Source: Bacteroidota bacterium
Lineage (GTDB): Bacteria > Bacteroidota > Ignavibacteria > Kryptoniales > JAKASW01
DNA length: 64,000 nt
Direction: 5' to 3'
Assembly: GCA_023381615.1 (NCBI GenBank)
Contig: JAMCQL010000014.1
Span: 16,569-80,568 of the forward strand
Each line of letters starts with the position of its first letter. Position 1 is the first letter of the stretch. This document shows, piece after piece, positions 1,239-50,332 of this stretch. The notes under the pieces are model-generated. The model saw only the letters and a list, made by a program, of their open reading frames with translations, was not told where the DNA came from and searched no databases. A program made the position numbers and the translations under genes.

Positions 1239-1244
1239 CGAGGG

Positions 1245-29747: not shown

Positions 29748-29823
29748 CGAAGCCTCCTATTTTAATGTTAGGCGAATTTAGATAGTAGTTTTGTAAAATG
29801 CAACTTGCAAAAAGTATTTTTGG

Positions 29824-29943
29824 GTAATCCGTCAGTGATGAGGGTAAGTTACAACCTTGCGAAGGTTCGAAACCATCGCAAGGTTCTATTCTCTCGGGAC
29901 GGCGAGGTGTCTTGTCCTAACCACACCGTCACTGACGGATTAC
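29824..29943. repeat. 120-nt element bounded by perfect 15-bp inverted repeats
   Basis: GTAATCCGTCAGTGA (29824..29838) pairs with TCACTGACGGATTAC (29929..29943). Inside lies the AACCTTGCGAAGGTT-CGA-AACCATCGCAAGGTT hairpin. Confidence 0.6.
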
Positions 29944-30017
29944 GAACGGCATGTTGAAGATTTTTGCAACTTCCGCCGCTAACTGTTAAATTTTCACGCA
30001 AAAAACCTTTTGAAAAG

Positions 30018-30995
30018 ATGAGAGCTTTAATCCCTGTCGCAGGGGTGGGAACACGTCTGCGTCCGCACACTTACACATTGCCGAAAGTCTTACTCAACGT
30101 CGGCGGCAAACCGATCGTCGGGCATATTGTAGATAAACTTTCCAACATTGGAATAAGAAATATTTCTGTTGTCGTCGGGTACATGGGAGATATGGTGGAA
30201 GAATATCTCCAAACCAATTACAAAGCAAATTTCAAATTCATTTATCAGGAAGAGAGACTCGGTCTCGGTCATGCAACTTATGTTGCGCTTTCCCAAGACG
30301 GCAATGACGAGCCGCTTCTTATCATTCTGGGCGATACCGTTTTTGACGTTGACCTTTCGCCGCTTTTGAAGAGTGAGTTTTCAAGTATCGGTGTTAAAAG
30401 GGTTGAAGACCCAAGAAGATTCGGCGTTGCCGAGACGGCGGGCGACAAAGTGACAAAGCTGATAGAGAAGCCCGATCATCCGACTTCAAACCTTGCCGTC
30501 GTTGGTTTGTATTATATAAAATCGCCGAAGAAACTTCTTGCGGCACTTCAGGAACTCATTGACAAGAACATAAAAACTAAAGGGGAGTATCAACTCACCG
30601 ACGCGCTTCAGATGATGCTAGATCGCGGCGAGGTGATAACATTTTTTGAGATCGATGGCTGGTACGATTGCGGCAAGCCCGAGACACTTCTTGCTACGAA
30701 TCGTTACTTATTGAAAAAGACCAAACATTTCAAGAAGCGCGATGACGTGGTTATCATCCCTCCCGTTTACATAGCCGACTCAGCGAAGATATCAAACTCA
30801 GTAATCGGTCCGAACGCAACAATCGATTCTGATGTAACAGTAGTCGACTCATTGATTCGTGATTCAATAATCGGCTCCGGCGCTTCAATACAGAACGCGC
30901 TTCTTGAGGGATCGATAGTCGGACAGAACGCACAACTTAAAGGAAGTTTCAAACGCGTCAACGCGGGCGATTCTACCGAGATAGACTTTTCATAA
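30018..30995 (+). CDS. sugar-1-phosphate nucleotidyltransferase with C-terminal left-handed beta-helix
   Basis: Starts MRALIPVAGVGTRLRP..LPKVLL and has hexapeptide-like repeats at the C-terminus. I chose the ATG at 30018. Confidence 0.8.
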   Translation: MRALIPVAGVGTRLRPHTYTLPKVLLNVGGKPIVGHIVDKLSNIGIRNISVVVGYMGDMVEEYLQTNYKANFKFIYQEERLGLGHATYVALSQDGNDEPLLIILGDTVFDVDLSPLLKSEFSSIGVKRVEDPRRFGVAETAGDKVTKLIEKPDHPTSNLAVVGLYYIKSPKKLLAALQELIDKNIKTKGEYQLTDALQMMLDRGEVITFFEIDGWYDCGKPETLLATNRYLLKKTKHFKKRDDVVIIPPVYIADSAKISNSVIGPNATIDSDVTVVDSLIRDSIIGSGASIQNALLEGSIVGQNAQLKGSFKRVNAGDSTEIDFS

Positions 30996-31013
30996 CAAAT
31001 TACTGGAGAAGAA

Positions 31014-32192
31014 ATGTACAAGCTATTCACATCGGAATCAGTCACTGAAGGGCATCCTGACAAGATTTGCGATCAGATTTCCGATGCAGTGCTAGATGCA
31101 CATTTAGCAATCGAACCAAACTCGAGGGTTGCCTGTGAAACGTACGTAACGACGGGACTCGTGGTTATTGGCGGCGAAGTAACAACCACCGAAAAAGCTA
31201 AGGCGAAGATAGATGTTGCCGACATTGCCCGCGGAGTCATAGAGCGAATCGGTTATACAGACAGTAGTTATAAGTTTGACGCGTACTCCTGTGGTGTTAT
31301 CAATGTCATGCACTCCCAATCAGGGGACATAAGTCGCGGCGTCGAGCGCGGCGGTGCGGGCGACCAGGGGATGATGTTCGGTTACGCCTGCTCGCAGACG
31401 GAAGAATACATGCCTCTTCCGATTGCACTTGCGCATAGAATTACTCGCAGACTTGCCGAAGTTAGAAAGATGAAAAATTCTCCCATGCCTTATCTGCGTC
31501 CTGATGGGAAGAGCCAGGTTACGATTGCCTACCACGATGGCGGCAAGGTAACGGTGGAGACGGTTGTTGTTTCGACTCAGCACGATCCCGAACCCAAGGG
31601 AAAGACCGAGAGTCAGTGGCAGAAAAAAATCTCCGATGATGTGAAGAAGTATATCGTAAAGAATGCCGTTTCAGAAAAGTGGCTTACGAAGGACACGAAA
31701 TATTACATCAACCCGACGGGAAGATTTGAGATCGGCGGTCCGCACGGAGACACGGGACTGACAGGCAGGAAGATTATCGTCGATACTTACGGCGGATATG
31801 CTCCACACGGCGGCGGCTCATTTTCCGGAAAAGATCCGTCCAAAGTCGACCGAAGTGCCGCCTATGCCGCGCGTTATCTTGCAAAAAACATCGTCGCTGC
31901 AGGTTTGGCAGATGAGTGCATGATCCAACTTGCATACGCGATCGGAGTTGCAAAACCGGTTTCGGTTTTGGTCGACACCCGCGGAACTTCAAAGTTCTCT
32001 TCTGATTCCGATCTGGCAAAGACGGTGAGCAAAGTTATGGATCTCACTCCGGGTGGTATCACAAAGCATCTCAATCTTCGCCGGCCAATCTTCGAGAAGA
32101 CCGCTGCTTACGGACATTTCGGCAGAGATGACAAGGATTTCACCTGGGAAAAACTGGACCTTGTGAAAACTCTGCAGAGTGAAGTGAAATAA
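31014..32192 (+). CDS. metK: S-adenosylmethionine synthetase
   Basis: Has [32 protein letters not shown] and [16 protein letters not shown]. Confidence 0.97.
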
Positions 32193-32241
32193 TTCTAGTT
32201 TAAATTGTCAATCTCAATTAATTCTTTGGAGAAGTTTCTAG

Positions 32242-33522
32242 ATGAATGAAGTAAAAGGATTATACAAAGTGCGGGACATTTCTCTCGCTGATGAAGGCAA
32301 GAAAAGGATCGCATGGGCGGAATCGAGAATGCCTGTGTTAATGGCGTTAAAAGAAAAATACAGCGCATCAAAACCGTTCAAGGGTTACAAGATCGCCGGA
32401 TGCCTTCATGTTACAAAGGAGACGGCTGTTCTTGTGAAGACGTTTGCTGCTTGCGGCGCGCAGGTAAGCTGGAGCGGATGCAACCCGCTTTCGACTCAGG
32501 ACTCGGTTGCCGCGGCACTCGCCTCCGAAGACATTTCAATCTTCGCATGGCACGGAATGTCAGTGAAGGAATTTTACTGGGCAATCGACGAAACGATAAA
32601 GATGAAGCCGAATCTGACGCTCGATGACGGCGCAGATTTGATTTTCACTTTGCACAAGAAATATCCCGAGCTTGCCGAAAGCACGATCATCGGCGGGACG
32701 GAAGAGACAACGACAGGTGTTCACAGGCTCCGCGCGATGGCAGACGACGGTGCGTTGAAGTATCCGGTCATTGCAGTGAACGACGCTGAGACGAAATGGG
32801 ATTTTGACAACGTTTACGGAACGGGGCAATCGACGCTCGATGGAATCCTGCGTGCGACAAGCGTGCTCCTCGCGGGAAAAAACATCGTCGTTGCCGGTTT
32901 CGGCCACTGCGGCAAAGGCGTTGCGATGCGCGCAAAGGGACTCGGCGCGAACGTTATAGTCACTGAAGTGAAACCGACAGCTGCTCTCAAAGCAACTCTC
33001 GAAGGATTCAGAGTCATGACGATGGACGAAGCGGCAAAGGTCGGAGACATTTTTGTGACGGCAACCGGCGTGAAAGATATTGTGGTCGACCGGCACTTTG
33101 AAAAGCTCAAAGACGGAGCGATCGTCTGCAATACCGGACACTACGATTGCGAGCTTAACCTCGATCATCTGAAAAACATCACGAAGAAGGTTCAGGAGAT
33201 CCGGCCGAACAACGAGGAGTATCTTCTGAAAGATGGCAGGCGCATCTACGTGTTGGCGCAGGGAAGGCTTGTCAACCTCGCCGCGGCAGAAGGACATCCT
33301 TCCGAAGTGATGGACATGTCGTTCGCGAATCAATTTATGTCGCAGCTTAAACTTGCCGAGCTTTACAGGAAGGGCAAGAAGCTTGACAATAAAGTCCACG
33401 ATATTCCCGCTGAGCAGGACCAGGAAATCGCAAGGGTGAAATTGAAAACGATGGGAATCAAGATCGACAAGTTGACTCCGGAGCAGGTGAAGTATCAGAC
33501 CGATTATAGCTCCGGAACGTAA
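32242..33522 (+). CDS. ahcY: adenosylhomocysteinase
   Basis: 426 aa. Has CLHVTKETAVL, DDGADL, VAGFGHCGKGVA and GRLVNLAAAEGHPSEVMD. Confidence 0.95.
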   Translation: MNEVKGLYKVRDISLADEGKKRIAWAESRMPVLMALKEKYSASKPFKGYKIAGCLHVTKETAVLVKTFAACGAQVSWSGCNPLSTQDSVAAALASEDISIFAWHGMSVKEFYWAIDETIKMKPNLTLDDGADLIFTLHKKYPELAESTIIGGTEETTTGVHRLRAMADDGALKYPVIAVNDAETKWDFDNVYGTGQSTLDGILRATSVLLAGKNIVVAGFGHCGKGVAMRAKGLGANVIVTEVKPTAALKATLEGFRVMTMDEAAKVGDIFVTATGVKDIVVDRHFEKLKDGAIVCNTGHYDCELNLDHLKNITKKVQEIRPNNEEYLLKDGRRIYVLAQGRLVNLAAAEGHPSEVMDMSFANQFMSQLKLAELYRKGKKLDNKVHDIPAEQDQEIARVKLKTMGIKIDKLTPEQVKYQTDYSSGT

Positions 33523-33537
33523 AACCATACTCTGGCT

Positions 33538-33579
33538 AACCTTGTCAAGGTTGAAAACGCTCTTAACCTTGACAAGGTT
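33538..33579. repeat. REP-like palindrome pair (CCTTGWCAAGG family), probable ahcY terminator
   Basis: AACCTTGTCAAGGTT-GAAAACGCTCTT-AACCTTGACAAGGTT, then TTTG, 16 nt after the ahcY stop. Confidence 0.7.
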
Positions 33580-33686
33580 TTGAATGAGGCTGTTCCTGTA
33601 TGCGGGACAGTCTATTGCTTTTAAAGCGTCTTCCAAGACTTGCTCTCGGGAGACGATAGTCTTTAACACTTTGTCAGGGAGGCAAA

Positions 33687-35018
33687 ATGAAAACTTTATT
33701 TGTGTTATTCTCGGTTCTTTTTTTCGCGGAGGTTTCATTAGCTCAGATGGACGAGAATTGGATCAAACAGGCGGCTGTTGATCGGCTTCTTCGGTACGTC
33801 AAGATCGACACGCAATCTAAGGAAGAAGTAGATCGTGTGCCAAGCACGGAAAAGCAATTCGATCTTGCACGGATACTTTTGAAGGAGCTGCAGGACATTG
33901 GGCTGAAAGATGCACGGCTTGACGAAGAGTACTGCTATGTCTATGCGACTTTACCTTCAAATCTTTCCGAGGAGGAAGCTGCGAAGGTCCCCGTGATTGG
34001 GTTCATAGCGCATGTAGATGCCTCGCCTTCGGTCAGCGATGCTAACGTGAATCCTATCATTCACAAAAACTATCAGGGTGGAGACATCGTCCTTCCGAAC
34101 GACACAACGCAAGTAATCACCGTGAAGAACAATCCGAACCTCCTGAACAACATAGGCAGTGATATTATTACCACCGACGGGACGACTTTGCTTGCGGCAG
34201 ACGATAAGGCCGGTATTGCCGAAATCATGACCGCTGTAGAGTACCTGCTGAAACATCCTCAGATAAAACACGGGACGATCAAGATAGCATTTACTCCTGA
34301 TGAGGAAGTCGGACACGGACCGAAGTATTTCGATGTCAAAGGATGGGGCGCAAAGTACGCTTATACGATTGACGGCGGCCAGCGCGGTGAACTTAGTGAT
34401 GAAACATTTAATGCTAATACTGCCATAGTGACTTTCAACGGCAAGAATACGCATCCTGGTTACGCGAAAGGGATCATGGTAAATTCGTTATATGCGGCGT
34501 CTTATTTCATCTCATTATTTCCGGAGAATATGAAACCTGAGACAACATCCGGCAGAGAAGGTTATCTTCATCCGTACGATCTTACCGGCAATGAGGAGCA
34601 GACTCGTCTGAAGATTCTTATCCGCGATTTCGAAATGAGCGGAATGGAAGCTAAGGCGAAGATACTTGAGAATATGAAAGAGAAAACCCTCGGGGAGTTT
34701 CCAAAGGTCAAGATAGACTTAAACATCACCGAAAGTTATCGCAACATGAACTCGATCCTCAGCAAATATTCTGAGGTCACGAAGTTTGCGGAAGAGGCAA
34801 TGAAACAGGCGGATGTTAGGCCGGTCAATCTGCCGATACGGGGTGGAACCGACGGTTCGAAGTTGACATTCATGGGATTGCCGACTCCTAATATTTTTGC
34901 GGGAGAGGAGAATCCGCACGGAAAGCAGGAATGGGTCTCCGATAAGTCGATGGTGAAGGCCGTAGAGACTATCGTGAACCTCTCAAACATCTGGGCGGAA
35001 AAAGATGCCGGGAAATAA
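33687..35018 (+). CDS. pepT: peptidase T (M20B tripeptide aminopeptidase)
   Basis: 443 aa with a signal-like N-terminus. Has VKIDTQS, GFIAHVDASP, DDKAGIAEIM and FTPDEEVGHG. Confidence 0.85.
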   Translation: MKTLFVLFSVLFFAEVSLAQMDENWIKQAAVDRLLRYVKIDTQSKEEVDRVPSTEKQFDLARILLKELQDIGLKDARLDEEYCYVYATLPSNLSEEEAAKVPVIGFIAHVDASPSVSDANVNPIIHKNYQGGDIVLPNDTTQVITVKNNPNLLNNIGSDIITTDGTTLLAADDKAGIAEIMTAVEYLLKHPQIKHGTIKIAFTPDEEVGHGPKYFDVKGWGAKYAYTIDGGQRGELSDETFNANTAIVTFNGKNTHPGYAKGIMVNSLYAASYFISLFPENMKPETTSGREGYLHPYDLTGNEEQTRLKILIRDFEMSGMEAKAKILENMKEKTLGEFPKVKIDLNITESYRNMNSILSKYSEVTKFAEEAMKQADVRPVNLPIRGGTDGSKLTFMGLPTPNIFAGEENPHGKQEWVSDKSMVKAVETIVNLSNIWAEKDAGK

Positions 35019-35022
35019 TGCT

Positions 35023-35133
35023 AACCTTGACAAGGTTGAAAAGCTTCTTACCTTGACAAGGTTCGTCAAGCAATGCTGCCTGTCTCTGCCGCCACCAACC
35101 TTGTCAATGGTAAGAAGAAACCTTGACAAGGTT
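35023..35133. repeat. cluster of four REP-like palindromes (CCTTGWCAAGG family)
   Basis: AACCTTGACAAGGTT (35023), ACCTTGACAAGGTT (35050), AACCTTGTCAATGGT (35097) and AACCTTGACAAGGTT (35119). The first pair has the same GAAAAnnnTCTT spacer as 33538..33579. Confidence 0.75.
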
Positions 35134-35146
35134 TATAGAAGAACAA

Positions 35147-35965
35147 ATGGACATAACCCAAATCGATTCATTATCGCTACCTGAGCTTAAACCTTACCGT
35201 ACAATGCGGCGAACGCTGGAGCATCGCGCGAAAGGAATTTTCGTTGCGGAAAGTGAGAAGGTTGTCCGGCGTCTTCTCGAGAGCGACCTGAAAGTTGTGT
35301 CGATCCTCCTGACGAGAGGGTGGCTTAATATTTATGAAAATTTGCTTGAGAACAGGCAAATTGAAAACGGAATTTTTGTAGGCGAGAAAAGTTTGCTTGA
35401 GCAAATTGTCGGCTGCGGTTTGCATCAGGGGATAATGGCAATCGGAAGAGTGCCGGCATCAGTTGCTATTTTTGATTTACTGAATAAATTTCCCAATCCC
35501 CGCTTGCTTGTTGCATCGGATGGAATAGCGAACTCGGAAAACATGGGGGTAATTGTCAGGAACTGTGCCGCGTTTGGCGTGCAAGCGCTTATCGCCGGTG
35601 AGACTTCATGCGATCCGTATTTGCGGCGCTCCGTCAGGAATTCCATGGGAACGATTTTTAAATTGCCAATCGCTAGCGCAGAGAAGCTTTCGATTGTCCT
35701 AAAGAGATTGCGGGACGAATTTTCATTTCAAATTGTTGCGGCACATCCACAGAGTGGTTCGAAGGACATTGCGGATGCTGATTTTAGTAAAGATATTTGC
35801 ATCGTTTTTGGAGGCGAAGGTAAGGGGATTTCGGAAGAAATTCTGGATGAATGCAGCATTCGCGTCAGAATTCCGATGCAGAACGATGTTGATTCAATAA
35901 ATGTGGCGAGTTCGGTTGGCGTAGTTTTGTACGAGACAATTCGTCAACGGGGAATGGGCGTTTGA
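35147..35965 (+). CDS. TrmH/SpoU-family RNA 2'-O-methyltransferase
   Basis: Has NSENMGVIVRNCAAFG and the C-terminal SINVASSVGVVLYE knot motif. I chose the ATG at 35147 because the listed start at 35123 lies inside the repeat cluster. Confidence 0.75.
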   Translation: MDITQIDSLSLPELKPYRTMRRTLEHRAKGIFVAESEKVVRRLLESDLKVVSILLTRGWLNIYENLLENRQIENGIFVGEKSLLEQIVGCGLHQGIMAIGRVPASVAIFDLLNKFPNPRLLVASDGIANSENMGVIVRNCAAFGVQALIAGETSCDPYLRRSVRNSMGTIFKLPIASAEKLSIVLKRLRDEFSFQIVAAHPQSGSKDIADADFSKDICIVFGGEGKGISEEILDECSIRVRIPMQNDVDSINVASSVGVVLYETIRQRGMGV

Positions 35966-36082
35966 TGATTGATGCGGAAAGTTGAAATTGCCGGCCGATG
36001 TCTTTGCAATTCAGTGAAAGATTTACAGAGTGTTGCGTCATGGCACCATTGTAAATAGATTATACGTGAGAGGTGATAAAAT

Positions 36083-36340
36083 ATGTGCTTAGGAGTTCCA
36101 GGAAAAGTTGTTCGAATTGACGAGAATCCGCTCGGGATGACAATGGGAAAGGTGAACTTCGGCGGGATATCAAAAGATGTTTGCCTTGCTTATGTGCCTG
36201 AGGCGAAGGTCGGGGACTACGTCATCGTTCACGTCGGCTTTGCAATAAGTAAGCTCGACGAAAATGAGGCAAAGCAGGTTTTTGAATATCTTGAGCAGAT
36301 GGGAGACCTGAAGGAAATAAAAGGCTCCGGGCAGACTTAA
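36083..36340 (+). CDS. hypC: hydrogenase maturation chaperone HypC
   Basis: Starts MCLGVPGKVV and has GDYVIVHVGFA. Confidence 0.9.
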   Translation: MCLGVPGKVVRIDENPLGMTMGKVNFGGISKDVCLAYVPEAKVGDYVIVHVGFAISKLDENEAKQVFEYLEQMGDLKEIKGSGQT

Positions 36341-36455
36341 TAGTATGTCGCCTGTAAATGCCCGAGATTTGATTTTTAGATCCGAGGAATTTCTTCCCGC
36401 GTGGTTCGTTGGAGAGGTCGTTCTGTCGTTGTGGATGGAATCGGAGAATTAGAGT

Positions 36456-36818
36456 ATGCACGAACTTTCAATAGCTGAGAGCATCGTCGATATAGTCAGA
36501 GAAAATCTTGCCGCCAATGGCTCGGGCGCAGTAAAGAGCGTAAGAGTCAGAGTCGGCGAACTTGCGGGCGTCGTTCCTGATTCGCTGGATTTTTGTTTCA
36601 TTGCAATCACTAACGGAACTCCGCTCGAGGGCGCCAAGCTTGAAATTGAGAAGACGAATATCGTGGCGCATTGTCAGGATTGCGGAGTTGATTCAAAAGT
36701 TGAAGGACTTGTGTTCCAATGTCCCGTATGCACGAGTACAAATATTCAAGTTGTTTCAGGAAATGAATTGCAAGTCGTCGAGATCGAAATCGACGATGAA
36801 AAGATAATAGACCACTGA
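36456..36818 (+). CDS. hypA: hydrogenase nickel-insertion protein HypA
   Basis: Starts MHELSIAESIV and has the CQDCG...CPVC zinc motif. Confidence 0.9.
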   Translation: MHELSIAESIVDIVRENLAANGSGAVKSVRVRVGELAGVVPDSLDFCFIAITNGTPLEGAKLEIEKTNIVAHCQDCGVDSKVEGLVFQCPVCTSTNIQVVSGNELQVVEIEIDDEKIIDH

Positions 36819-36820
36819 TA

Positions 36821-36905
36821 ACACGGATGACACTGATTTACACAGATAAAATGAATGAGGATGAAACAATCCGTGAAGATCCGTGTAATCAGTGTAATCT
36901 GTGTG
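36821..36905. repeat. opposed 9-bp tandem arrays (ACACNGATN x3 facing ATCNGTGTA x3-4) in the hypA-hypB spacer
   Basis: ACACGGATG ACACTGATT TACACAGAT occupies 36821..36847. ATCCGTGAAG ATCCGTGTA ATCAGTGTA ATCTGTGTG occupies 36869..36905. The arrays are mutually complementary. Confidence 0.6.
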
Positions 36906-36957
36906 CTATCATTTCTTACCAGTATTGTTCCCGATTGTCTGTATTAGGAGAGTCGAA

Positions 36958-37623
36958 ATGAGTGTCGTAACGATTGAACGAAAAGTTTTGCAGAAGAACG
37001 ACGAGTTAGCACAGCAAAACAGGTCTCTTTTTGCACAAAATGGCGTCTTTGTGATAAATCTCGTCAGTTCGCCCGGTTCCGGAAAGACAAGCCTTCTTGA
37101 GAGAACGCTCGATCATTTGAATGGCAAGATCAATGTTGCCGTCGTCGAGGGGGATGTGCAGACGGATTTGGATGCTCAGCGAGTTGCGAAGTTTGGTGTG
37201 CCGGTCGTCCAGATCGTAACAAACGGCGCTTGCCACCTTGAGGCAAAGCTCGTTCAGGATGCAATCGCGAACATCGATTTGAAAGGTGTCGAGCTGCTTG
37301 TTATAGAGAACGTGGGCAATCTCGTTTGTCCGGCAGGATACGATCTCGGCGAGGCGATGAAAGTCGTCATCGCAAGCACGACTGAAGGGGACGACAAGCC
37401 GTTGAAATATCCGGCGATGTTCCGCAACGCTTCGGTCTTGATCATAAATAAGATCGATCTTGTCCCGTATGTAAACTGCAATCTTGAAGTCCTTAAGAAA
37501 AATGCTTTCCAGATCAATCCGAACCTGACAGTCTTCGAGACTTCGTGCACCATCCCGACAGGTGTCGGGACCGGTATTGTGGAGTGGTCGAACTGGCTTT
37601 TGAATAAAACCAGAAACTCTTGA
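36958..37623 (+). CDS. hypB: hydrogenase nickel-incorporation GTPase HypB
   Basis: Has SSPGSGKTSLL (P-loop), ENVGNLVCP and INKIDL. The ATG at 36958 follows AGGAGAG. Confidence 0.9.
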   Translation: MSVVTIERKVLQKNDELAQQNRSLFAQNGVFVINLVSSPGSGKTSLLERTLDHLNGKINVAVVEGDVQTDLDAQRVAKFGVPVVQIVTNGACHLEAKLVQDAIANIDLKGVELLVIENVGNLVCPAGYDLGEAMKVVIASTTEGDDKPLKYPAMFRNASVLIINKIDLVPYVNCNLEVLKKNAFQINPNLTVFETSCTIPTGVGTGIVEWSNWLLNKTRNS

Positions 37624-40139
37624 AAAGTCGGCTTCATATTGCCTTGCGCGGTGCAGTGCAAGGTGTTGGATTCAGGCCTTTTGTTTATCGACTTGCTGTG
37701 GAAATGGGACTCAACGGTTGGGTCCTCAATTCATCTCAGGGAGTCTTTATTGAGATTGAGGGCGAGAAGAATCTACTCGACATTTTCCTATCCAGACTCG
37801 AAAAGGAAAAACCGCCGCGTTCATATATTCAGGGAATGGAATTTTCGTTTCTCGACGTTATCGGTTTTACGAAGTTTGAAATAAGAGAGAGCAGTTCGAA
37901 CGGCGAGAAGAGCGCGATTGTTTTGCCTGATATCGCGACATGTCCCGACTGTGCAAGCGAAATTCTTGACCCGAGCAACAGACGGTATTTGTATCCATTT
38001 ACAAATTGCACGAACTGCGGTCCGCGTTTCAGCATAATCAGAGCTCTTCCTTACGATAGGTCGAATACCACGATGCAGAAATTCGAGATGTGCGAGAAGT
38101 GCAGGGAAGAATATAATAATCCGCTCGACAGGCGATTCCATGCGCAGCCGAACGCGTGTCCGAAGTGTGGGCCGCACATCGAGCTTTGGGATAAGAGTGG
38201 CGGCATTTTGTCGATGCGCCGCGATGCGCTTCTTCATGCCGCTGACTCACTCCGGCGTGGTAAAATTGTTGCGCTGAAAGGGATCGGCGGATTCCAGCTG
38301 ATTGTCGACGCAAGAAATGAAGAGGCAGTAAAACTCCTGCGTACCCGGAAGCATCGTGAGGAGAAACCGTTCGCGCTGATGTATCCATCACTAGAATACT
38401 TGAAACGTCATTGTGAAATATCTGAGGTAGAGGAAAGATTGCTTTTATCACCGGAGGCACCGATTGTATTGCTGAGGAGAAAGAAGATAACCTTGTCAAA
38501 GAGCAAGCTACCCTTGCGAAGGTTTCCAGAGACGGATAACCCCAACAGCTTTCATGAGTGTGGAACCTTCGCAAGGTTAAAGGCATCGGATATCGCCGAT
38601 TCCGTGGCGCCTCGGAATCCCTATCTCGGAGCTATGCTGCCTTATACACCGCTCCATCTTATCTTGATGTGTGAGCTTGGATTCCCGGTGGTCGCAACAA
38701 GCGGAAATATTTCTGACGAACCGATTTGTATCGATGAGCACGAGGCGCTGGAAAAGCTGCGGGACATCGCCGATTTGTTCTTGGTTCACGACAGGCCGAT
38801 TGAAAGGCATGTAGATGATTCCGTCGTTCGCATCATGATGGAGCGCGTCCAGATGGTTCGCCGCGCCCGCGGTTATGCGCCGTTTCCGATTGAACTTGAT
38901 GGAGAGAACCATGCGTCGGTGCTTGCAGTCGGTGGGCATTTGAAGAACACAATTGCAATCAATTCGGGAAATAACATTTTTGTGAGTCAGCATATCGGCG
39001 ATCTGTCGACCGAAGAAGCGTTTAAGGCTTTTGAAAAAGTGACTCGCGATTTTCAGAAGCTGTACGAAATCTCACCTCAAGTGATCGCGCACGACATCCA
39101 TCCGGATTATCTCTCGACGCAGTTTGCTCGTGCAGCAATCAGCAGTCAGCAATCAGCGGTCAGCATCCAGCATCACTTTGCTCATGTCGCCTCTTGCATG
39201 GCGGAGAATAAGTTGAATGGGCAAGTGCTTGGAGTTTCCTGGGACGGTACCGGCTACGGTGAAGTCGAAGATCCCCCGAAGGGGCAGGCCGTTCGCGGGA
39301 ACGGGACAGTCTGGGGCGGAGAATTTCTCCTGACAGACGGCGGCGATTATAAACGTGTTGCGACATTTAGATCATTTCGCTTGCCGGGGAATTCGGCGTC
39401 TGTGAAAGAGCCGCGGCGGACAGCGCTCGGAGTTCTTTATGAAATCTTTGGCGAAAAATTGTTCGGGATGACGGAGATGCCGCCTGTCAATGCATTCGAG
39501 GAACAGTCACTGCCAATCTTGAAGAAAATGCTTGAAACTGGTTTGAATTCTCCGACAACGACAAGCGCGGGAAGATTATTTGATGCCGTTTCCTCGATCA
39601 TCGGGCTTCGACAAGTTGTGAATTTCGAAGGACAGGGCGCGATGGAACTTGAGTTTGCCGCGGATGGAACGGAGTCGGATGATTGTTACGATTTTGACGT
39701 TACAGGAAACAGGAGAAAGGAGACAGGAGACAGGACAGGATACGAACCTTCATTCATCGTAAATTGGGAACCGATGGTCAAAGAGATTCTTGATGATAAA
39801 TCGAGGGGTATGCCGGTCGGCTTGATAGCTGCTAAGTTTCATAATACTCTCGCGGCGATTATTGTCGATGTTGCGAAACGAGTCGGCGAAGAAAGGGTCG
39901 TCATTAGTGGCGGATGTTTCCAGAACAGATATCTTACGGAGCGAACGATTTGGCTCTTGAGCGGGAATGGTTTCAAACCTTACTGGCACCAACGAATACC
40001 GCCAAACGACGGAGGGATTTCGCTGGGACAGCTGTTTGTGGCGTTAAGGAAGGAAAAAAGGAGGCAGGAGACGAAAGGCAAAGTGGAAGAATGGAATTGT
40101 GGAGGAATGGAATTGTGGAAGAATGGAATATCTGAGTAA
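37620..40139 (+). CDS. hypF: carbamoyltransferase HypF, about 90 aa longer than typical because of repeat-derived inserts
   Basis: Has the acylphosphatase domain (RGAVQGVGFRPFVY), CPDC..CTNCGPRF..CEKC..CPKCGP zinc fingers, YrdC-like and Kae1-like parts (VQHHFAH, GGCFQN). TTG start overlaps the hypB stop. Confidence 0.9.
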   Translation: MKSRLHIALRGAVQGVGFRPFVYRLAVEMGLNGWVLNSSQGVFIEIEGEKNLLDIFLSRLEKEKPPRSYIQGMEFSFLDVIGFTKFEIRESSSNGEKSAIVLPDIATCPDCASEILDPSNRRYLYPFTNCTNCGPRFSIIRALPYDRSNTTMQKFEMCEKCREEYNNPLDRRFHAQPNACPKCGPHIELWDKSGGILSMRRDALLHAADSLRRGKIVALKGIGGFQLIVDARNEEAVKLLRTRKHREEKPFALMYPSLEYLKRHCEISEVEERLLLSPEAPIVLLRRKKITLSKSKLPLRRFPETDNPNSFHECGTFARLKASDIADSVAPRNPYLGAMLPYTPLHLILMCELGFPVVATSGNISDEPICIDEHEALEKLRDIADLFLVHDRPIERHVDDSVVRIMMERVQMVRRARGYAPFPIELDGENHASVLAVGGHLKNTIAINSGNNIFVSQHIGDLSTEEAFKAFEKVTRDFQKLYEISPQVIAHDIHPDYLSTQFARAAISSQQSAVSIQHHFAHVASCMAENKLNGQVLGVSWDGTGYGEVEDPPKGQAVRGNGTVWGGEFLLTDGGDYKRVATFRSFRLPGNSASVKEPRRTALGVLYEIFGEKLFGMTEMPPVNAFEEQSLPILKKMLETGLNSPTTTSAGRLFDAVSSIIGLRQVVNFEGQGAMELEFAADGTESDDCYDFDVTGNRRKETGDRTGYEPSFIVNWEPMVKEILDDKSRGMPVGLIAAKFHNTLAAIIVDVAKRVGEERVVISGGCFQNRYLTERTIWLLSGNGFKPYWHQRIPPNDGGISLGQLFVALRKEKRRQETKGKVEEWNCGGMELWKNGISE
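38489..38578 (+). repeat. REP-like palindrome element (CCTTGCGAAGG variant) embedded in-frame in hypF
   Basis: AACCTTGTCAAAG...ACCCTTGCGAAGGTT...AACCTTCGCAAGGTT. It is 90 nt (30 codons) and encodes ...TLSKSKLPLRRFPETDNPNSFHECGTFARL... Confidence 0.7.
39137..39171 (+). repeat. heptanucleotide tandem array NNTCAGC x5 inside hypF
   Basis: AATCAGC AGTCAGC AATCAGC GGTCAGC ATCCAGC. Confidence 0.75.
39703..39737 (+). repeat. heptanucleotide tandem array CAGGAGA x5 inside hypF
   Basis: CAGGAAA CAGGAGA AAGGAGA CAGGAGA CAGGACA. Confidence 0.75.
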
Positions 40140-40152
40140 TGGAATTGTGTCT
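40089..40152 (+). repeat. 16-bp tandem repeat x4 spanning the hypF stop codon
   Basis: GAATGGAATTGTGGAG GAATGGAATTGTGGAA GAATGGAATATCTGAG TAATGGAATTGTGTCT. Degenerate AATGGAAT copies continue to about 40540. Confidence 0.8.
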
Positions 40153-40357
40153 CGAAATTGAGCCGGCCTTGAGTCCCGTTAGGGACGAAATGTTTGTAGT
40201 TAAGGGAAGGAAGTCAAGGCAGCCCCGCAGGGGCGACATGTGCGTGGACGAATGGAATAATGAAAAGCGAAGGCGGGATGCGGAACCAGAAGTTAGGAGC
40301 AAGATGCAAGAAAGAAAAAACAGGGGCAAGAAGGCAGAAGGGAATAATGGAAAAATG

Positions 40358-40406
40358 TCCCGCTCAATTATTCTATACGAGAGTGCGGGATCCCGCAGAG
40401 CGGGAG
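40358..40406 (+). repeat. hairpin repeat family TCCCGCTCA..ATTATT..TGCGGGATSCCGC, copy in hypF-hypD spacer
   Basis: TCCCGCTCAATTATTCTATACGAGAGTGCGGGATCCCGCAGAGCGGGAG. Confidence 0.6.
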
Positions 40407-40557
40407 AATAATGGAATACTGGATAATTTCCGAGAATGAAAGAAGCCAGAGCAGGAAAGAAGAGCGAGTGTCAAGCCCTCCTCTCCCTCGCGGGAGAGGA
40501 AAGAGGTGAGGGCGAAATGGAATGGTGGAATACAAGAAATTAGAAGTGATAAGTTAG

Positions 40558-41661
40558 ATGAAATACATAGACGAATATAGAGATGCAGAGACGGCGAAGA
40601 AATACGCCGAGATGATTCACAAGATCACGACTCGTGAGTGGACTATGATGGAAATATGCGGTGGGCAGACACATGCAATCGTGAAGTTCGGCATCGATTT
40701 TCTTCTCCCGAAAGAAATTACACTTGTTCACGGGCCGGGCTGTCCCGTTTGTGTCACGCCGCTAGAGATAATCGACAAGGCGATTGTCATCGCAAGCCGT
40801 CCCGATGTCATCTTCACATCGTTCGGAGATATGCTTCGCGTTCCCGGCTCGAAAAAAGATTTGCTCACTGTCAAGTCCGAAGGCGGCGACGTTCGAATAG
40901 TATATTCTCCGCTCGATGCGCTTAAGGTGGCACAGCAAAACCCGAACAAGAAAGTTGTGTTCTTCGCAGTGGGATTTGAAACGACCGCTCCGGCGAACGC
41001 GATGGCTGTCTGGCAGGCGAGGGAATTAGGCGTAAAGAATTTTTCGGCGCTTGCTTCGCACGTTCTTGTTCCGCCGGCGATGGTGGCGATATTGTCTTCG
41101 CCTTCTCATCTTGTCCAAGCTTTTCTTGCAGCCGGGCATGTTTGCACGGTGATGGGATACGAAGACTATTTCCCGATTGCGGGAAAATACAAAGCGCCGA
41201 TCATCGTAACGGGTTTCGAGCCGGTGGATATTCTGCAGGGAATTTATATGGCAGTTAAGCAGCTTGAAGAAGGGAGAGTCGACGTCGAGAATCAATATGC
41301 GCGTGCGGTTCGAAGAGAAGGAAATATTCCCGCGAAGAAGTTGCTCGCAGATGTATTCGAGGTCATTGACAGGAAGTGGCGCGGCATTGGAATAATTCCG
41401 CAGAGCGGCTGGGGATTGAAACCGGAATTTGCGGACCACGATGCAGAGAAAATCTTCGACGTTGGTGGAATCGAGACTCAGGAATCGCCTCTCTGCATCG
41501 CGGGAGAAATTTTGCAGGGGCTGAAGAAGCCGCATGAGTGCACTGCCTTCGGAACGCTTTGCAAGCCCGAGCATCCGTTAGGTGCGCCGATGGTGTCGTC
41601 GGAAGGAGCGTGTGCGGCGTATTTCGCCTATGGAAGGTATAGGGAGGCCGATGGACGTTGA
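40558..41661 (+). CDS. hypD: hydrogenase maturation protein HypD
   Basis: Has [27 protein letters not shown] and FFAVGFETT. Confidence 0.93.
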
Positions 41662-43096: not shown

Positions 43097-43203
43097 TTCT
43101 TTGATTCCGAGGTTGTATGCCATGAAAGCCAGCACATCCGCAGCTTGCGCGATGCGCTTGTCTGTCGGCATGTAGTTGTGGCTCGTCTTTGTCTCGACTC
43201 GAA
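43097..43203 (-). pseudogene. orphan duplicate of the prolyl-oligopeptidase 3' end (left copy of a 107-bp direct repeat)
   Basis: Base-for-base identical to 44048..44154. In frame it encodes ...ETKTSHNYMPTDKRIAQAADVLAFMAYNLGIKE, then its own tail PRPTGKKY and a stop. Confidence 0.8.
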
Positions 43204-43760: not shown

Positions 43761-43956
43761 ACGACGAGTTTACCCAAAATGCCATGAGATTTGAGAATTT
43801 GGTCTTGACCTCCCCTTAGTCCCCTCCTTGACAAGGAGGGGATAAAGGGGTGGTTGATTCGTGATGATCTTAGTAGGCTTATCTTACAACTTGAGTTAGA
43901 TCCTATGTCGATTTCCACGAGGTCCTGTCGATCGTAATCAAAATGGGTAAACTCGT
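43761..43956. mobile_element. 196-bp MITE, copy 2
   Basis: Identical by eye to 1043..1238. GAAGCG is repeated on both flanks (43755..43760 and 43958..43963, the right copy offset by 1 nt). Confidence 0.8.
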
Positions 43957-44029
43957 TGAAGCGACCGATCAGCCATCGAATTTCAGCCACTGTCTGACTG
44001 CTGAAAGCTGACAGCTGATCGCGCCTTTT

Positions 44030-46315
44030 TTACTTTCCCGCCGGTGCTTCTTTGATTCCGAGGTTGTATGCCATGAAAGCCAGCACATCCGCAGCTTGCG
44101 CGATGCGCTTGTCTGTCGGCATGTAGTTGTGGCTCGTCTTTGTCTCGACTCGAATCAGCACCGGGTTATCACAAGCCTGATCGTGCTGCATCTCGGCGAT
44201 GAATTTGTATGAGTGGCTCGGCACGACCCTGTCATCGTGATCGGCGGTCGTGACAATTGTCGGAGGATAACATGTACCAGGCTTGATGTTCTGCACCGGT
44301 GAATATTTGATAAGATACTGGAAATCAGTTGAGTCATCCGATGAACCGTACTCAGGAACCCAACCTACTCCCGCGGAAAATTTCTGGTAACGAAGCATGT
44401 CCATGACTCCCGCGCCGGCGTATGCTGCTCCGTAAAGGTCGGGGCGCTGTGTCTCTACAGCACCGATAAGAAGTCCGCCATTCGAATATCCCTCGATGCC
44501 GAGCTTCGGTGTCGATGTGTATTTTTCTTTTATCAGGTATTCGGCAGCGGCAATGAAATCGTCGAACACGTTCTGCTTTTTGCTCAGCATCCCAGCGTGA
44601 TGCCACGCTTCGCCATATTCGCCGCCGCCTCGTAAGTTTGCCACCGCATAAATGCCGCCCATCTCAAGCCAGGCGGCGGTCGTAGGACTGAATGACGGCG
44701 TGATGCTGATATTGAATCCGCCGTAGGCATAAAGGAGTGTCGGGTTCTCCCCGTCGAGCTTCAATCCCTTTTTCATCGTAATAAACATCGGAATTCGAGT
44801 GCCATCTTTGGAGTGATAAAACACTTGCTTTGTCTCATAATTGTTTGGACTAAAGTCTACATGCGGCGGTTGGAATTCCGTGCTCTTTCCTGTCTTGTCC
44901 CGACGAAGGTCGGGATCCTTCGGAAAGTCATAATGGAACACTGTTGTTGGATAGAGAAATGACGTGAAAGCGTAGAATAGCTCCGGTGTGTCGTAACGGC
45001 CGCTCATTCCTCCTACTGTGCCAAGTCCGGGTAGCTTCAGTTTTCCTTCGGCTTTTCCTTTGAGCGAGTAGAATGACACTTCGCTCTTCGCATCGACGAG
45101 ACGCATGACAACAACCCGTCCGCCCGCGAGGAGCGACTGCTCAATCACATTCTTCGATTCAGGAACGACTGTCTTCCAATTTTTCGGATCGGGATGGTTT
45201 ATATCGAATGACACCATGCGACGGTTCGGTGCATCAAGAGTTGTCTGCATATAAAGTGTCGTCCCGACATTTCCAATCGGATAGTATTCGGCGTCGTCTT
45301 TTTCAAATAACGGAGTGACAGGCGATGAAAGGTCGGGATTTCCCGGGTCTTTCAGATCGACATAATAGACTTTGTTTTTGGACTCCGTCCCTTTATTCAG
45401 GATTATGAAAAGGTACCGCCCATCTTCCGTTACTCCACCGCCAACGTACCAGCCGGGATAGTCTTTCAGGTCATAGAAAAGTTTATCGTCGCTCTGTGGA
45501 GTTCCGAGTTTGTGGTAGTAAAGCTCCTGTCCGACAGCCTCGGACATCAGAGCCTCACCCTTCTTTGGCTCCGGGAATCTCGAATAGAAGAATCCGCGGT
45601 TGTCGTTCGTCCACGCGATTCCTGAGAATTTTACCCAATGAACCGTGTCGGCGAGATCTTTTCCGGTCGCAAGGTCGCGGACATGAAGCTCCTCCCAATC
45701 CGCTCCGCCTTGAGAAAGTCCATAGCATAGATATTTCCCATTCGGCGAGGCCTCATAGCTTAGAAGCGCAATCGAGCCGTCGGGCGAGAGCTTGTTCGGA
45801 TCGAGGATCATCCTTGGTTTGCCCGCCAAAGACTTCTGGACGTAAACCGGGCTTTGGTTCTGCAATCCGGAGTTCTTGCTGTAGAAGAGTTCCCCCGACC
45901 GGGTCGGGGTCGGCACTCCGACCTTCTCGTAGTTCCAGAGCTTTGTGATTCTTTTATTGATCCACTTTCGGACGGGAATCTTGCCTAAGTAATCGAAGGT
46001 GACTTTGTTTTCCGCTTCGACCCACGTTTCCACTTCAGGACTGTTTTGATTCTCCATCCATTGATATGGGGCGGGGACTTTCGTTCCGAAATAATTGTCA
46101 ACGATAGTATCCCTGCGTGCGACCGGATAAGTCAAGGATTGGCCTTTGACGGTGAGCGGTAAAATAATCATAGCGACAAGAATGAATAATTCGAAGTTAA
46201 GCGCGGTCCGAGTTCCCAGGAAAGATGGAATGTTTCCCTTCCTCGTTCGTCTCGATTGATAAATAGGAATAGCGAAGATCAGCAGAATGCTGAAGAGTAT
46301 TAAGAGCGCTGACAT
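44030..46315 (-). CDS. prolyl oligopeptidase (S9A serine peptidase)
   Basis: N-terminal beta-propeller and a C-terminal hydrolase with GYSNGGLL (nucleophile Ser), ...TADHDDRV... and TKTSHNY. The true start may be an internal Met before the signal-like MIILPLTVKG. Confidence 0.9.
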   Translation of the reverse strand: MSALLILFSILLIFAIPIYQSRRTRKGNIPSFLGTRTALNFELFILVAMIILPLTVKGQSLTYPVARRDTIVDNYFGTKVPAPYQWMENQNSPEVETWVEAENKVTFDYLGKIPVRKWINKRITKLWNYEKVGVPTPTRSGELFYSKNSGLQNQSPVYVQKSLAGKPRMILDPNKLSPDGSIALLSYEASPNGKYLCYGLSQGGADWEELHVRDLATGKDLADTVHWVKFSGIAWTNDNRGFFYSRFPEPKKGEALMSEAVGQELYYHKLGTPQSDDKLFYDLKDYPGWYVGGGVTEDGRYLFIILNKGTESKNKVYYVDLKDPGNPDLSSPVTPLFEKDDAEYYPIGNVGTTLYMQTTLDAPNRRMVSFDINHPDPKNWKTVVPESKNVIEQSLLAGGRVVVMRLVDAKSEVSFYSLKGKAEGKLKLPGLGTVGGMSGRYDTPELFYAFTSFLYPTTVFHYDFPKDPDLRRDKTGKSTEFQPPHVDFSPNNYETKQVFYHSKDGTRIPMFITMKKGLKLDGENPTLLYAYGGFNISITPSFSPTTAAWLEMGGIYAVANLRGGGEYGEAWHHAGMLSKKQNVFDDFIAAAEYLIKEKYTSTPKLGIEGYSNGGLLIGAVETQRPDLYGAAYAGAGVMDMLRYQKFSAGVGWVPEYGSSDDSTDFQYLIKYSPVQNIKPGTCYPPTIVTTADHDDRVVPSHSYKFIAEMQHDQACDNPVLIRVETKTSHNYMPTDKRIAQAADVLAFMAYNLGIKEAPAGK

Positions 46316-49860: not shown

Positions 49861-50195
49861 TACGGCGTAGAAATCCACCGCCTAAGGCAGTGGTAATGGA
49901 CGAATGGCTTTGCCGGTCGAACTCTCCCCTTCGCTCCCCCTCTCTTTGCGAAAGAGAGGGGGACGGGGGGTGAGTTAGGATGCAGGACTACATGAAGGAA
50001 ATCCAGCTCATCGTTTTCTACGAAGCCACCGCCTTTGGCGGTGGTCGTTCACTACGGGAGGCGCTCGTGAAGAGTCCAAAGAAACCGAGTGTCCGGACAG
50101 TTCATAGGGAATTATTTAAGCATCCCTCTGGTTTCCATGCTCCGGTACTGAGCGTCAAGAACATCCCCCGACGAAGATCGTCGGAGGGAGTAAAT

Positions 50196-50332
50196 AATCT
50201 TGGTCCTGTGAACATTGCATTAACTGGGAGCAAGAAAAAGACAAAGACATTTGCAGCAAATGTTACTGGGGAAATCCAGAAAACTATTTACACATTGCAT
50301 TACGCACAGCTCGACGCCTCGATATTCTATAA
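50196..50332 (+). pseudogene. relic 3' end (about 44 codons plus stop) of an HNH endonuclease gene
   Basis: 50196..50307 is identical to 51815..51926 inside the intact HNH gene. Similarity continues with 3 mismatches to 50328. The relic keeps the frame (..CEHCINWEQEKDKDICSKCYWGNPENYLHIALRTARRLDIL) and ends at its own TAA. Confidence 0.75.

What the first reader, a model, noticed from the sequence alone, without database searches (positions are those of the whole stretch)
38489..38578. REP-like palindromic element inserted in-frame into hypF
A 90-nt segment (30 codons) in the YrdC-to-Kae1 linker of HypF carries three members of the intergenic palindrome family: AACCTTGTCAAAG, ACCCTTGCGAAGGTT and AACCTTCGCAAGGTT. 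The last two are mutually complementary across a 39-nt loop.

The same CG-variant pair occurs intergenically at 29853..29885. The encoded peptide (TLSKSKLPLRRFPETDNPNSFHECGTFARL) interrupts the otherwise conserved ...PIVLLRR / ...APRNPYLGAMLPYTPLH region.

A selfish repeat tolerated as a protein insertion, which may also form an mRNA hairpin inside an essential maturation gene, is unusual.
Basis: partly seen in the sequence, partly recalled or inferred. Interest (0 to 1): 0.6.

Follow-up and report, generated by a model that had tools for sequence, protein, structure and literature searches.

The report
Palindromic repeat doublet inside hypF
A short hairpin-forming repeat, normally found between genes, sits in frame in a floppy loop of the hydrogenase-maturation enzyme HypF; it has survived there across several related genera, but this is a new example of a known phenomenon, not a new kind of system.

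Summary
hypF (37620-40139, +) carries a decayed arm (38489-38501) and two 15-nt arms (38510-38524, 38564-38578). The two full arms are 14/15 complementary across 39 nt. Copies of the same AACCTT-NNN-AAGGTT family lie between genes at 29853, 33538, 35023 and 35097 (8 matches against 0.03 expected).

The site is not the YrdC-Kae1 linker. It is a disordered loop inside the YrdC-like domain, absent from solved HypF structures.

The insert is not strain-specific. Orthologues at 64-70% amino-acid identity carry the same arms at the same codon position, two of them with the same 54-nt spacing. The arms are about 87% identical between lineages, while neighbouring third codon positions are 41% identical. 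Three arm-to-arm base pairs show compensatory changes. The highest-scoring other relatives (70-74% identity) lack the insert.

In other phyla the same loop, and three other HypF loops, hold 7-nt tandem repeats or GC-rich palindromes, so these are permissive sites that collect repeat DNA.

Best reading: a REPIN-like palindromic doublet tolerated in frame. The closest precedents are intragenic REPs and Rickettsia palindromic elements. No GTAG/CGTC tag was found and no RAYT gene lies in the window. A specific function for the hairpin is not excluded. Interest is moderate.

The parts
37620..40139 (+). hypF coding sequence (839 aa, TTG start overlapping the hypB stop). Host gene of the element.
   Evidence: All five HypF Pfam domains score above their cut-offs. 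E = 3.7e-196 to HypF structure 3vth. The window sequence carries every invariant column of the 97-sequence alignment.
38489..38501 (+). Decayed extra arm AACCTTGTCAAAG (GTC type). It sits directly after the RRKK codons, where L019, L020 and L023 have their 5' arm.
38510..38524 (+). 5' arm ACCCTTGCGAAGGTT (CG variant), read as P-L-R-R-F.
38525..38563 (+). 39-nt spacer, the loop of the hairpin, encoding PETDNPNSFHECG. It is poorly conserved: 46-49% identity to the L019 and L020 spacers.
38564..38578 (+). 3' arm AACCTTCGCAAGGTT, read as T-F-A-R-L. It pairs with 38510-38524.
29853..29885 (+). Intergenic compact doublet (15+3+15, 'cga' spacer, CG variant) between divergent genes. It is nested inside a larger inverted repeat, 29823-29838 / 29929-29943.
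   Evidence: (z = -6.4).
33538..33579 (+). Intergenic doublet (15+12+15, GTC/GAC variant), 16 nt after the ahcY stop codon and just upstream of the conserved terminator at 33587-33613.
   Evidence: z = -6.3.
35023..35063 (+). Intergenic doublet (GAC/GAC), 5 nt after the stop codon of the M20 peptidase gene.
35097..35133 (+). Intergenic doublet (decayed GTC arm plus GAC arm) just upstream of the SpoU methylase gene.

Best explanation
The segment is one copy of a short palindromic repeat family. The unit of that family is a doublet: two inverted 15-nt modules, AACCTT-NNN-AAGGTT, separated by a spacer of 3, 12 or about 39 nt. The two modules pair with each other to form a hairpin of up to 15 bp. 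This is the architecture of REP doublets (REPINs).

Shown. Most copies lie in transcribed intergenic DNA just after stop codons. One copy sits in hypF. It is tolerated there for three reasons. Its length is a multiple of three. The frame in use is open, reading T/P-L-x-R-L/F for each arm. And it lands in a disordered loop of the YrdC-like domain that varies in length in HypF generally, so the enzyme simply carries a 30-residue longer loop.

Inferred. The extended doublet entered this loop once, before the window lineage separated from the L019 and L020 lineages. It was later lost or decayed in many relatives. The arms have been kept, or refreshed, at the nucleotide level. Either there is a constraint on the hairpin and its sequence that applies to every family member (as for REPINs recognised by a dedicated protein), or the arms are repaired by gene conversion or re-insertion from other copies. 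That would explain why the CG and TA variants do not follow the HypF tree.

No benefit to HypF itself is required. The mRNA hairpin is a by-product that ribosomes must unwind.
For: - Family membership and excess over chance.
- Doublet architecture: intergenic spacers of 3 and 12 nt; in hypF, 39 nt (window, L019, L020), 33 nt (L023) and 3 nt (L024, L022).
- Arm-to-arm pairing is what is kept. On 11 doublets, 92% of cells pair and 3 pairs show changes on both sides (9 cells), with 0 of 500 shuffles as high. The alternative of each 15-mer folding on itself shows no covariation.
- In L020 a C>G change in the 5' arm is matched by G>C in the 3' arm. This keeps the long helix but breaks each arm's own palindrome.
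- All four extended hypF copies fold into this helix, with z from -3.4 to -4.3.
- Nucleotide-level conservation: arms 80% identical between five lineages, 87% without the centre triplet. Flanking, strongly conserved hypF codons are 72% identical, third positions 41%. Window spacer versus L019 and L020 spacers is 46-49%.
- Same codon register in all lineages, and the same 54-nt arm spacing in window, L019 and L020.
- Permissive site: AlphaFold model has mean pLDDT 86.5, but 39-53 across residues 291-320 with no secondary structure. The loop is the most length-variable site among 97 HypFs: median 8 aa, maximum 35, window 30.
- Intergenic copies lie between stop codon and terminator, as REPs do (PMC3733652).
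- The compact hypF insert of L024 is 28/33 identical by hand count to the window's intergenic element at 29853, including the 'cga' spacer (sequences). This indicates a defined unit reused in different contexts.
- Precedent: intragenic REPs and RPEs (PMC3733652, PMC10969869); compensatory changes and long persistence in REPINs (PMC3116915).
Against: - No GTAG or CGTC tag flanks the arms (sequences). Most described REPs have one (PMC3733652).
- No RAYT/Y1 transposase was found among the 42 window ORFs scanned.
- All 11 arms in the window lie within 9 kb (29853-38578) and none in the other 55 kb. Genome-wide dispersal is therefore unproven.
- In L019, L023 and L024 the hypF copy is the only family member found in 5-22 kb of flanks. 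That fits a site-specific conserved element as well as a dispersed one.
- No target-site duplication or other footprint of insertion was seen.
- The HypF tree used to infer losses is a crude neighbour-joining tree.
Confidence: 0.68

Rival explanations
1. The hairpin in hypF is a selected cis-acting RNA or single-stranded DNA structure with a role in the hyp operon. Possible roles are a barrier to 3'-5' decay, a processing site that uncouples hypCAB from the hypF-DE message, or a ribosome pause between folding of parts of the YrdC-like domain. Under this reading it is conserved for that reason, not as a passenger.
For: - Arm nucleotides are far better conserved than synonymous sites across lineages.
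- Compensatory changes keep the helix.
- In L019, L023 and L024 the hypF copy is the only family member in the sampled flanks.
- Strong predicted folding in four lineages.
Against: - The highest-scoring other relatives and most HypFs lack it.
- It is decayed in L021, L022 and L025.
- The same module occurs after unrelated genes (ahcY, M20 peptidase).
- No Rfam family matches.
- The outer arm sequence is identical at unrelated loci, which points to a family-wide constraint and not a hypF-specific one.
Confidence: 0.15
2. The 15-bp palindromes are operators for a dimeric DNA-binding protein that controls the local metK-ahcY-...-hyp gene cluster. The hypF copies are intragenic operators.
For: - All arms in the window cluster within 9 kb of syntenic genes.
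- The half-sites AACCTT/AAGGTT are invariant between loci and species.
- One pair lies in a divergent promoter region.
Against: - The centre triplets of paired arms are mutually complementary (GTC with GAC, GCG with CGC) in all but one of the doublets (the GAC/GAC pair at 35023-35063; two decayed doublets are only partly complementary). L020 has a mirrored C>G / G>C change. An operator model does not predict either.
- Most copies sit immediately after stop codons, not at promoters.
- Centre-to-centre spacings of 18, 22, 26, 27, 48 and 54 bp show no helical phasing.
Confidence: 0.07
3. This is an ordinary, ancestrally variable linker. The palindromes arose in place by slippage or duplication, or by chance, as the 7-nt repeats at this loop do in other phyla. 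No repeat family is involved.
For: - The loop is length-variable across HypFs.
- In other lineages it holds locally generated heptanucleotide tandem repeats.
Against: - Identical 15-mers occur at four intergenic places in the same window.
- The same 33-nt unit is found intergenically here and inside hypF in L024.
- Chance expectation is 0.03.
Confidence: 0.05

Closest known systems
REPINs (REP doublets forming hairpins; Bertels & Rainey 2011, PMC3116915)
   Same: Two short conserved palindromic modules in inverted orientation, separated by a less conserved spacer and forming a long hairpin. Compensatory changes occur across the hairpin. Singlets look like decayed doublets. Copies are mostly extragenic and close to the 3' ends of ORFs. 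The family persists over long evolutionary times.
   Different: The modules here are only 15 nt. Spacers are 3-39 nt, against 71 or 110 nt between conserved 16-mers in Pseudomonas. There is no GTAG/CGTC tag. No RAYT was found in the 64-kb window. Copy number and dispersal across the genome are unknown, and one copy is inside a gene.
Intragenic REPs (Di Nocera et al. 2013, PMC3733652)
   Same: REP singles and dimers lie entirely within ORFs of known proteins and add short peptides. In Xanthomonas recB, different REPs sit at about the same site in two species, which parallels the same-site, different-variant pattern in hypF.
   Different: Those families carry GTAG or CGTC tags and were found mostly in replication and repair genes. 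hypF and this host clade (named Kryptoniota/Kryptobacter or Bacteroidota in public records) did not turn up in the passages read or in the literature searches.
Rickettsia palindromic elements (RPEs; Ogata et al. 2000, as reviewed in PMC10969869)
   Same: A palindromic repeat inserted in frame into a conserved metabolic gene, compatible with protein fold and function, and retained across species.
   Different: RPEs are about 100-150 bp, encode a conserved peptide, and hit dozens of unrelated genes per genome. Here the unit is 33-90 nt and the peptide is not conserved apart from the translated arms. Only hypF is affected among the roughly 52 window ORFs.
Short tandem heptanucleotide repeats in bacterial genomes (for example those discussed in PMC4692102 and PMC4679880)
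   Same: HypF loops in other phyla, and two further loops of the window's own HypF, hold 7-nt tandem arrays. This shows that the same permissive loops collect whichever repeat class a genome has.
   Different: Those are direct tandem repeats made by slippage, not inverted doublets. They do not explain the element at 38489-38578.

Membership tests
REP / REPIN elements | A short palindromic module present in many copies, far above chance | tested here: met
   8 hits against 0.03 expected. There are 11 arms at five places in the window.
REP / REPIN elements | Inverted doublets whose two modules pair into a hairpin, with conserved arms and a variable spacer | tested here: met
   92% of cells paired, 3 covarying pairs, 0 of 500 shuffles as high. 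RNAalifold finds the same helix. z from -3.4 to -6.4. Spacer identity 46-72%.
REP / REPIN elements | Mostly extragenic, close to the 3' ends of ORFs, and transcribed | tested here: met
   Copies lie 16 nt and 5 nt after stop codons, and before the terminator at 33587-33613. The hypF copy is the exception.
REP / REPIN elements | GTAG or CGTC tetranucleotide tag at one end of the module (PMC3733652) | tested here: not met
   The arms are AACCTT...AAGGTT. The flanks read gttac, ggct, tgct and aagct, with no GTAG or CGTC.
REP / REPIN elements | Associated RAYT (Y1 / IS200-like) transposase gene flanked by the repeats | tested here: inconclusive
   No Y1_Tnp hit among the 42 ORFs of at least 100 aa scanned. 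The remaining large ORFs are the annotated metK-ahcY-hyp genes. Only 64 kb of the genome is available.
REP / REPIN elements | Genome-wide dispersal in tens to hundreds of copies | tested here: inconclusive
   All arms lie within 29853-38578 and none in the other 55 kb. Relatives show 0-1 extra copies in 5-22 kb of flanks. No whole genome could be read.
Rickettsia palindromic elements (RPE) | In-frame insertion into a conserved protein-coding gene without loss of the reading frame | tested here: met
   90 nt, open in the frame used. All HypF domains are intact.
Rickettsia palindromic elements (RPE) | Element of about 100-150 bp encoding a conserved peptide, inserted in many unrelated genes | tested here: not met
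   The unit is 33-90 nt. Only the translated arms are conserved. No other ORF in the window carries a copy.
MITE | Terminal inverted repeats plus flanking target-site duplication | tested here: not met
   The arms could serve as terminal inverted repeats, but the flanks (GATA | AAGG in hypF, different at each locus) show no direct duplication.
HypF carbamoyltransferase (host gene) | Acylphosphatase, two HypF zinc fingers, YrdC-like domain and Kae1-like domains | tested here: met
   PF00708, PF07503 (two matches), PF01300, PF17788 and PF22521 all score above their cut-offs. E = 3.7e-196 to 3vth.

The most novel reading that the evidence does not exclude
The hairpin is not a passenger. Four surface loops of HypF, above all the YrdC-domain loop at aa 291-322, would be places where structure-forming or slippage-prone DNA is positively retained across phyla. 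This includes the palindromic doublet in this clade, and 7-nt arrays and GC-rich palindromes elsewhere. These sequences would act on expression of the hyp operon, through mRNA processing or stability or ribosome pausing at the hairpin, or through ON/OFF frame switching at the 7-nt arrays. Hydrogenase maturation would then be tunable or phase-variable in environmental bacteria.
Probability: 0.1. Interest if true: 0.7.

Novelty: new member of a known kind. Interest (0 to 1): 0.4.

Why it matters
This is a clean natural case of a REPIN-like hairpin living inside a conserved enzyme gene long enough for synonymous sites to saturate. Its arms are still kept at the nucleotide level, with compensatory changes. 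That makes it useful for asking what maintains such repeats: a recognition protein, the hairpin itself, or gene conversion.

It adds an undescribed palindrome family in a poorly studied clade of the FCB group. It also flags HypF's variable loops as permissive sites that collect repeat DNA, which is relevant for annotation, for protein engineering of HypF, and for interpreting odd low-complexity inserts in metagenomic proteins. It does not change what is known about hydrogenase maturation.

Tried and rejected
- Rfam scan of the whole window: no family reached its gathering score.
- Exact scans of IMG/VR for the TA and CG doublets: 0 hits each.
- Literature search for the core sequence: only unrelated eukaryotic primers and aptamers. 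Nothing relevant on Kryptonia repeats, and no listed paper mentions hypF together with repeats or phase variation.
- The genome-contig scan returned only short-loop relatives. The metagenome scan returned mostly distant hypFs.
- RAYT search in the window: none found.
- Test for frameshifted hypF at the loop, as a sign of phase variation: none among 105 loci. The two multi-frame cases lie elsewhere or contain Ns.
- G-U versus A-C mismatch bias, hand-counted from alignment A3, to decide sense RNA versus DNA: 4 against 4, uninformative.
- The consensus scan does not list the doublets as terminators. A separate terminator follows the doublet at 33538.
- The 12-aa window-specific insert at 39261-39302 contains small palindromes but folds no better than shuffles (z = -1.0).
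- A peptide search for other in-frame copies was not run, because a 14-aa query cannot reach significance in a database of 5.8 billion proteins.
Full report
**1. What is in the sequence**

The ORF at 37620-40139 (+) encodes an 839-aa HypF. All five Pfam domains are present: acylphosphatase, two HypF zinc fingers, YrdC/Sua5-like, and the two Kae1-like subdomains. It matches the solved HypF 3vth at E = 3.7e-196.

Between PIVLLRRKK and SDIADSVAPRNPYLG it carries about 30 residues that 3vth, 4g9i and 3tsp lack. The DNA there reads as follows:
- AACCTTGTCAAAG at 38489-38501
- ACCCTTGCGAAGGTT at 38510-38524
- a 39-nt spacer at 38525-38563
- AACCTTCGCAAGGTT at 38564-38578

The last two 15-mers are reverse complements at 14 of 15 positions. 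The same module occurs between genes at 29853/29871, 33538/33565, 35023/35049 and 35097/35119. AACCTTSSSAAGGTT with up to 1 mismatch gives 8 hits against 0.03 expected.

An independent assembly of the same species (L018) has the identical insert. The observation therefore stands. The peptide actually starts one base later than stated, at 38490.

**2. Where it sits in the protein**

It is not in the YrdC-to-Kae1 linker. Pfam's YrdC domain spans aa 211-415. An AlphaFold model built on a 97-sequence alignment has mean pLDDT 86.5 and pTM 0.87. In that model, residues 291-320 are the only long low-confidence stretch (block means 53, 48, 39). They have no secondary structure and lie between strands 282-287 and 335-339.

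Among 97 HypFs this loop is the most length-variable site: median 8 aa, maximum 35, window 30. Three other variable sites follow, at aa 696-709, 508-512 and 429-432.

**3. The unit is an inverted doublet**

- The intergenic copies are pairs: 15+3+15 at 29853, 15+12+15 at 33538 and 15+11+15 at 35023.
- The asymmetric centre triplets of the two arms are complementary to each other. GTC pairs with GAC, and GCG pairs with CGC.
- On 11 doublets from the window and relatives, the arm-to-arm helix is 92% paired. Three pairs show changes on both sides (9 cells), and 0 of 500 shuffles score as high.
- The alternative, in which each 15-mer folds on itself, shows no covariation.
- RNA folding gives the arm-to-arm helix with z = -6.3 and -6.4 for two intergenic copies. 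For the hypF copies of the window, L019, L020 and L023, z runs from -3.4 to -4.3.

**4. Relatives**

The best hits are named Candidatus Kryptobacter / Kryptoniota, Bacteroidota or Ignavibacteriae in public records. Gene order is syntenic: NTP-transferase, metK, ahcY, M20 peptidase, SpoU, hypC, hypA, hypB, hypF, hypD, hypE.

At the same codon position of hypF the relatives carry the following:

| Locus | Sequence at the site |
|---|---|
| L019 | AACCTTGTCAAGGCT, 39 nt, AACCTTGACAAGGTT |
| L020 | AACGTTGTCAAGGTT, 39 nt, AACCTTGACAACGTT |
| L023 | AACCTTGTCAAGGTT, 33 nt, AACCTTGACGAGGTT |
| L024 | compact form: GACCATACGGAGGTT, cga, AACCTTCGCAAGGTT |
| L022 | decayed compact form |
| L021, L025 | decayed extended forms |

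- Arm spacing in the window, L019 and L020 is the same, 54 nt start to start. All arms are read in the same frame.
- In L020, a C>G change in one arm is mirrored by G>C in the other. This keeps the long helix but breaks each arm's own palindrome.
- Between five lineages the arms are 80% identical, or 87% without the centre triplet. The flanking, strongly conserved hypF codons are 72% identical, with third positions at 41%.
- The window spacer is 46-49% identical to the spacers of L019 and L020.
- The arms are therefore held at the nucleotide level while the encoded loop peptide drifts.

**5. Distribution on the tree**

The highest-scoring relatives after the same-species hit (P0002-P0005, P0008; loci L001-L003; 70-74% identity) have a short loop without the element. 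A rough neighbour-joining tree places element-bearing hypFs in two subclades, separated by many short-loop sequences.

The CG variant (window, L024) and the TA variant (L019, L020, L023) do not follow that tree. Both variants coexist within single genomes, in the window and in L020.

Downstream of ahcY, the window has the TA doublet with a 12-nt spacer. L020 has the CG doublet with a 3-nt spacer at the orthologous place, before the same conserved terminator. L021 has none there.

The compact hypF insert of L024 is 28/33 identical by hand count to the window's intergenic element at 29853, including the 'cga' spacer.

My reading is inference, not demonstration. I propose an old insertion of the extended doublet, later losses and decay, and arm replacement by gene conversion or re-insertion from other copies.

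**6. The loop collects repeats in other phyla too**

In more distant hypFs the same loop holds other kinds of repeat:
- 7-nt tandem arrays: (CAACTCT)x4 in L031, (ATTTCAR)x4 in L037, (AAATTGG)x4 in L041 and (AAACTCA)x4 in L027
- inverted arrays of 8-mers in L045
- a GC-rich REP-like palindrome in L029

Across 105 hypF loci plus the window, 7-nt arrays map to the four variable loops. They are about three times denser inside hypF than in the flanks, 0.08 against 0.025 per kb. They also occur in neighbouring intergenic DNA. No frameshifted hypF was seen at the loop.

This supports a simple rule. HypF's permissive loops accumulate whichever repeat class a genome carries.

**7. Comparison with known systems**

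The architecture and behaviour match REPINs (PMC3116915): an inverted doublet, conserved arms, a variable spacer, compensatory changes, a position just after stop codons, and long persistence.

In-frame REPs, including different REPs at about the same site of recB in two Xanthomonas species, and the RPEs of Rickettsia, are documented precedents (PMC3733652, PMC10969869).

Features that were not met or remain open:
- No GTAG or CGTC tag.
- No RAYT among the 42 window ORFs scanned.
- No target-site duplication.
- All arms in the window lie within 9 kb.
- Nothing matches in Rfam.

I therefore say it works like a REPIN but do not claim proven membership. I file it as a new member of a known kind: palindromic repeats tolerated in frame.

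**8. Verdict**

A dedicated function for the hairpin in hyp expression remains possible at about 15%. An operator reading is unlikely given the arm-to-arm covariation. Interest is moderate, at 0.4.

Noticed in passing
window 39134-39157 and 39702-39737: There are two heptanucleotide tandem arrays inside hypF itself: (AGCAATC)-like x3.4 encoding AISSQQSAV, and (GGAGACA)-like x5 encoding RRKETGDRTG. They sit at two of the other length-variable HypF loops. The same-species assembly L018 has identical copies.
   Followed up: partly
L027, L029, L031, L033, L037, L041, L045, L066 (hypF genes from other phyla): 7-nt tandem arrays, and 8-nt arrays in L045, occur at up to four HypF loops per gene (query aa about 300, 410-437, 504-526, 685-704). 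They are about three times denser in hypF than in the flanks. The unit length is not a multiple of three, so a change of one copy would shift the frame. No frameshifted alleles were seen.
   Followed up: partly
window 39261-39302: A 12-aa insert (EVEDPPKGQAVRGN region) lies in the Kae1-like domain. No other sequence among the 97 aligned HypFs has a longer insert at this site, where the median is 0. The DNA contains the small palindromes CCCC-CGAA-GGGG and CCGTTC-GCGG-GAACGG but does not fold better than shuffles.
   Followed up: partly
window 40050-40558: The hypF 3' end and the roughly 420-nt hypF-hypD spacer are repeat DNA. A 16-nt tandem repeat (GAAGAATGGAATTGTG, about x5, 40070-40149) forms the HypF C-terminal tail. 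GAATGGAAT-like motifs are scattered through the spacer. A GC-rich palindrome sits at 40476-40514 (CCCTCCTCTCCCTCGCGGGAGAGG...GGTGAGGGCG) and resembles the element inserted in the hypF loop of L029. The 90-aa ORF at 40139-40411 has no Pfam hit in L018.
   Followed up: partly
window 1043-1241 and 43761-43959: Two 99%-identical copies of a 199-nt MITE-like element have terminal inverted repeats (ACGACGAGTTTACCCA / TGGGTAAACTCGTCG). An internal 47-nt palindrome is centred on the same CCTTGACAAGG core as the hypF family. One copy lies next to an IS4-type DDE transposase gene (1320-2774).
   Followed up: partly
window 18937-18971: A third palindrome with the CCTTGTCAAGG core but different outer arms (TCTCCCCCTTGTCAAGGGGGAGA). 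The core occurs 8 times in 64 kb, which suggests something recognises or favours it beyond the 15-mer family.
   Followed up: no
window 29823-29943: The intergenic CG doublet at 29853-29885 is nested inside a larger inverted repeat (GGTAATCCGTCAGTGA / TCACTGACGGATTAC). Together they form a composite hairpin of about 120 nt in the divergent region between a cytochrome c peroxidase gene and the NTP-transferase gene.
   Followed up: no
window 43097-43203 and 44048-44154: A 100%-identical 107-nt direct repeat brackets a 951-bp segment. The segment holds a ParE-like toxin/antitoxin pair and one MITE copy, next to the 3' end of a 761-aa ORF on the minus strand (44030-46315, not scanned). It looks like an insertion that duplicated its target.
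   Followed up: no
window 50196-50328 and 51815-51947: A 98%-identical 133-nt direct repeat flanks a Dam-like D12 methyltransferase gene and an HNH-nuclease gene. A second restriction-modification pair lies at 52349-54389 (N6_N4 methylase plus MjaI-type endonuclease).
   Followed up: no
window 19018-19047, 49872-49901, 50023-50052, 57187-57216: Another small hairpin family (AAGCCRCCGCC-NNN-GGCGGTGGT...) occurs at four places in the window. I did not check where these copies lie relative to genes.
   Followed up: no
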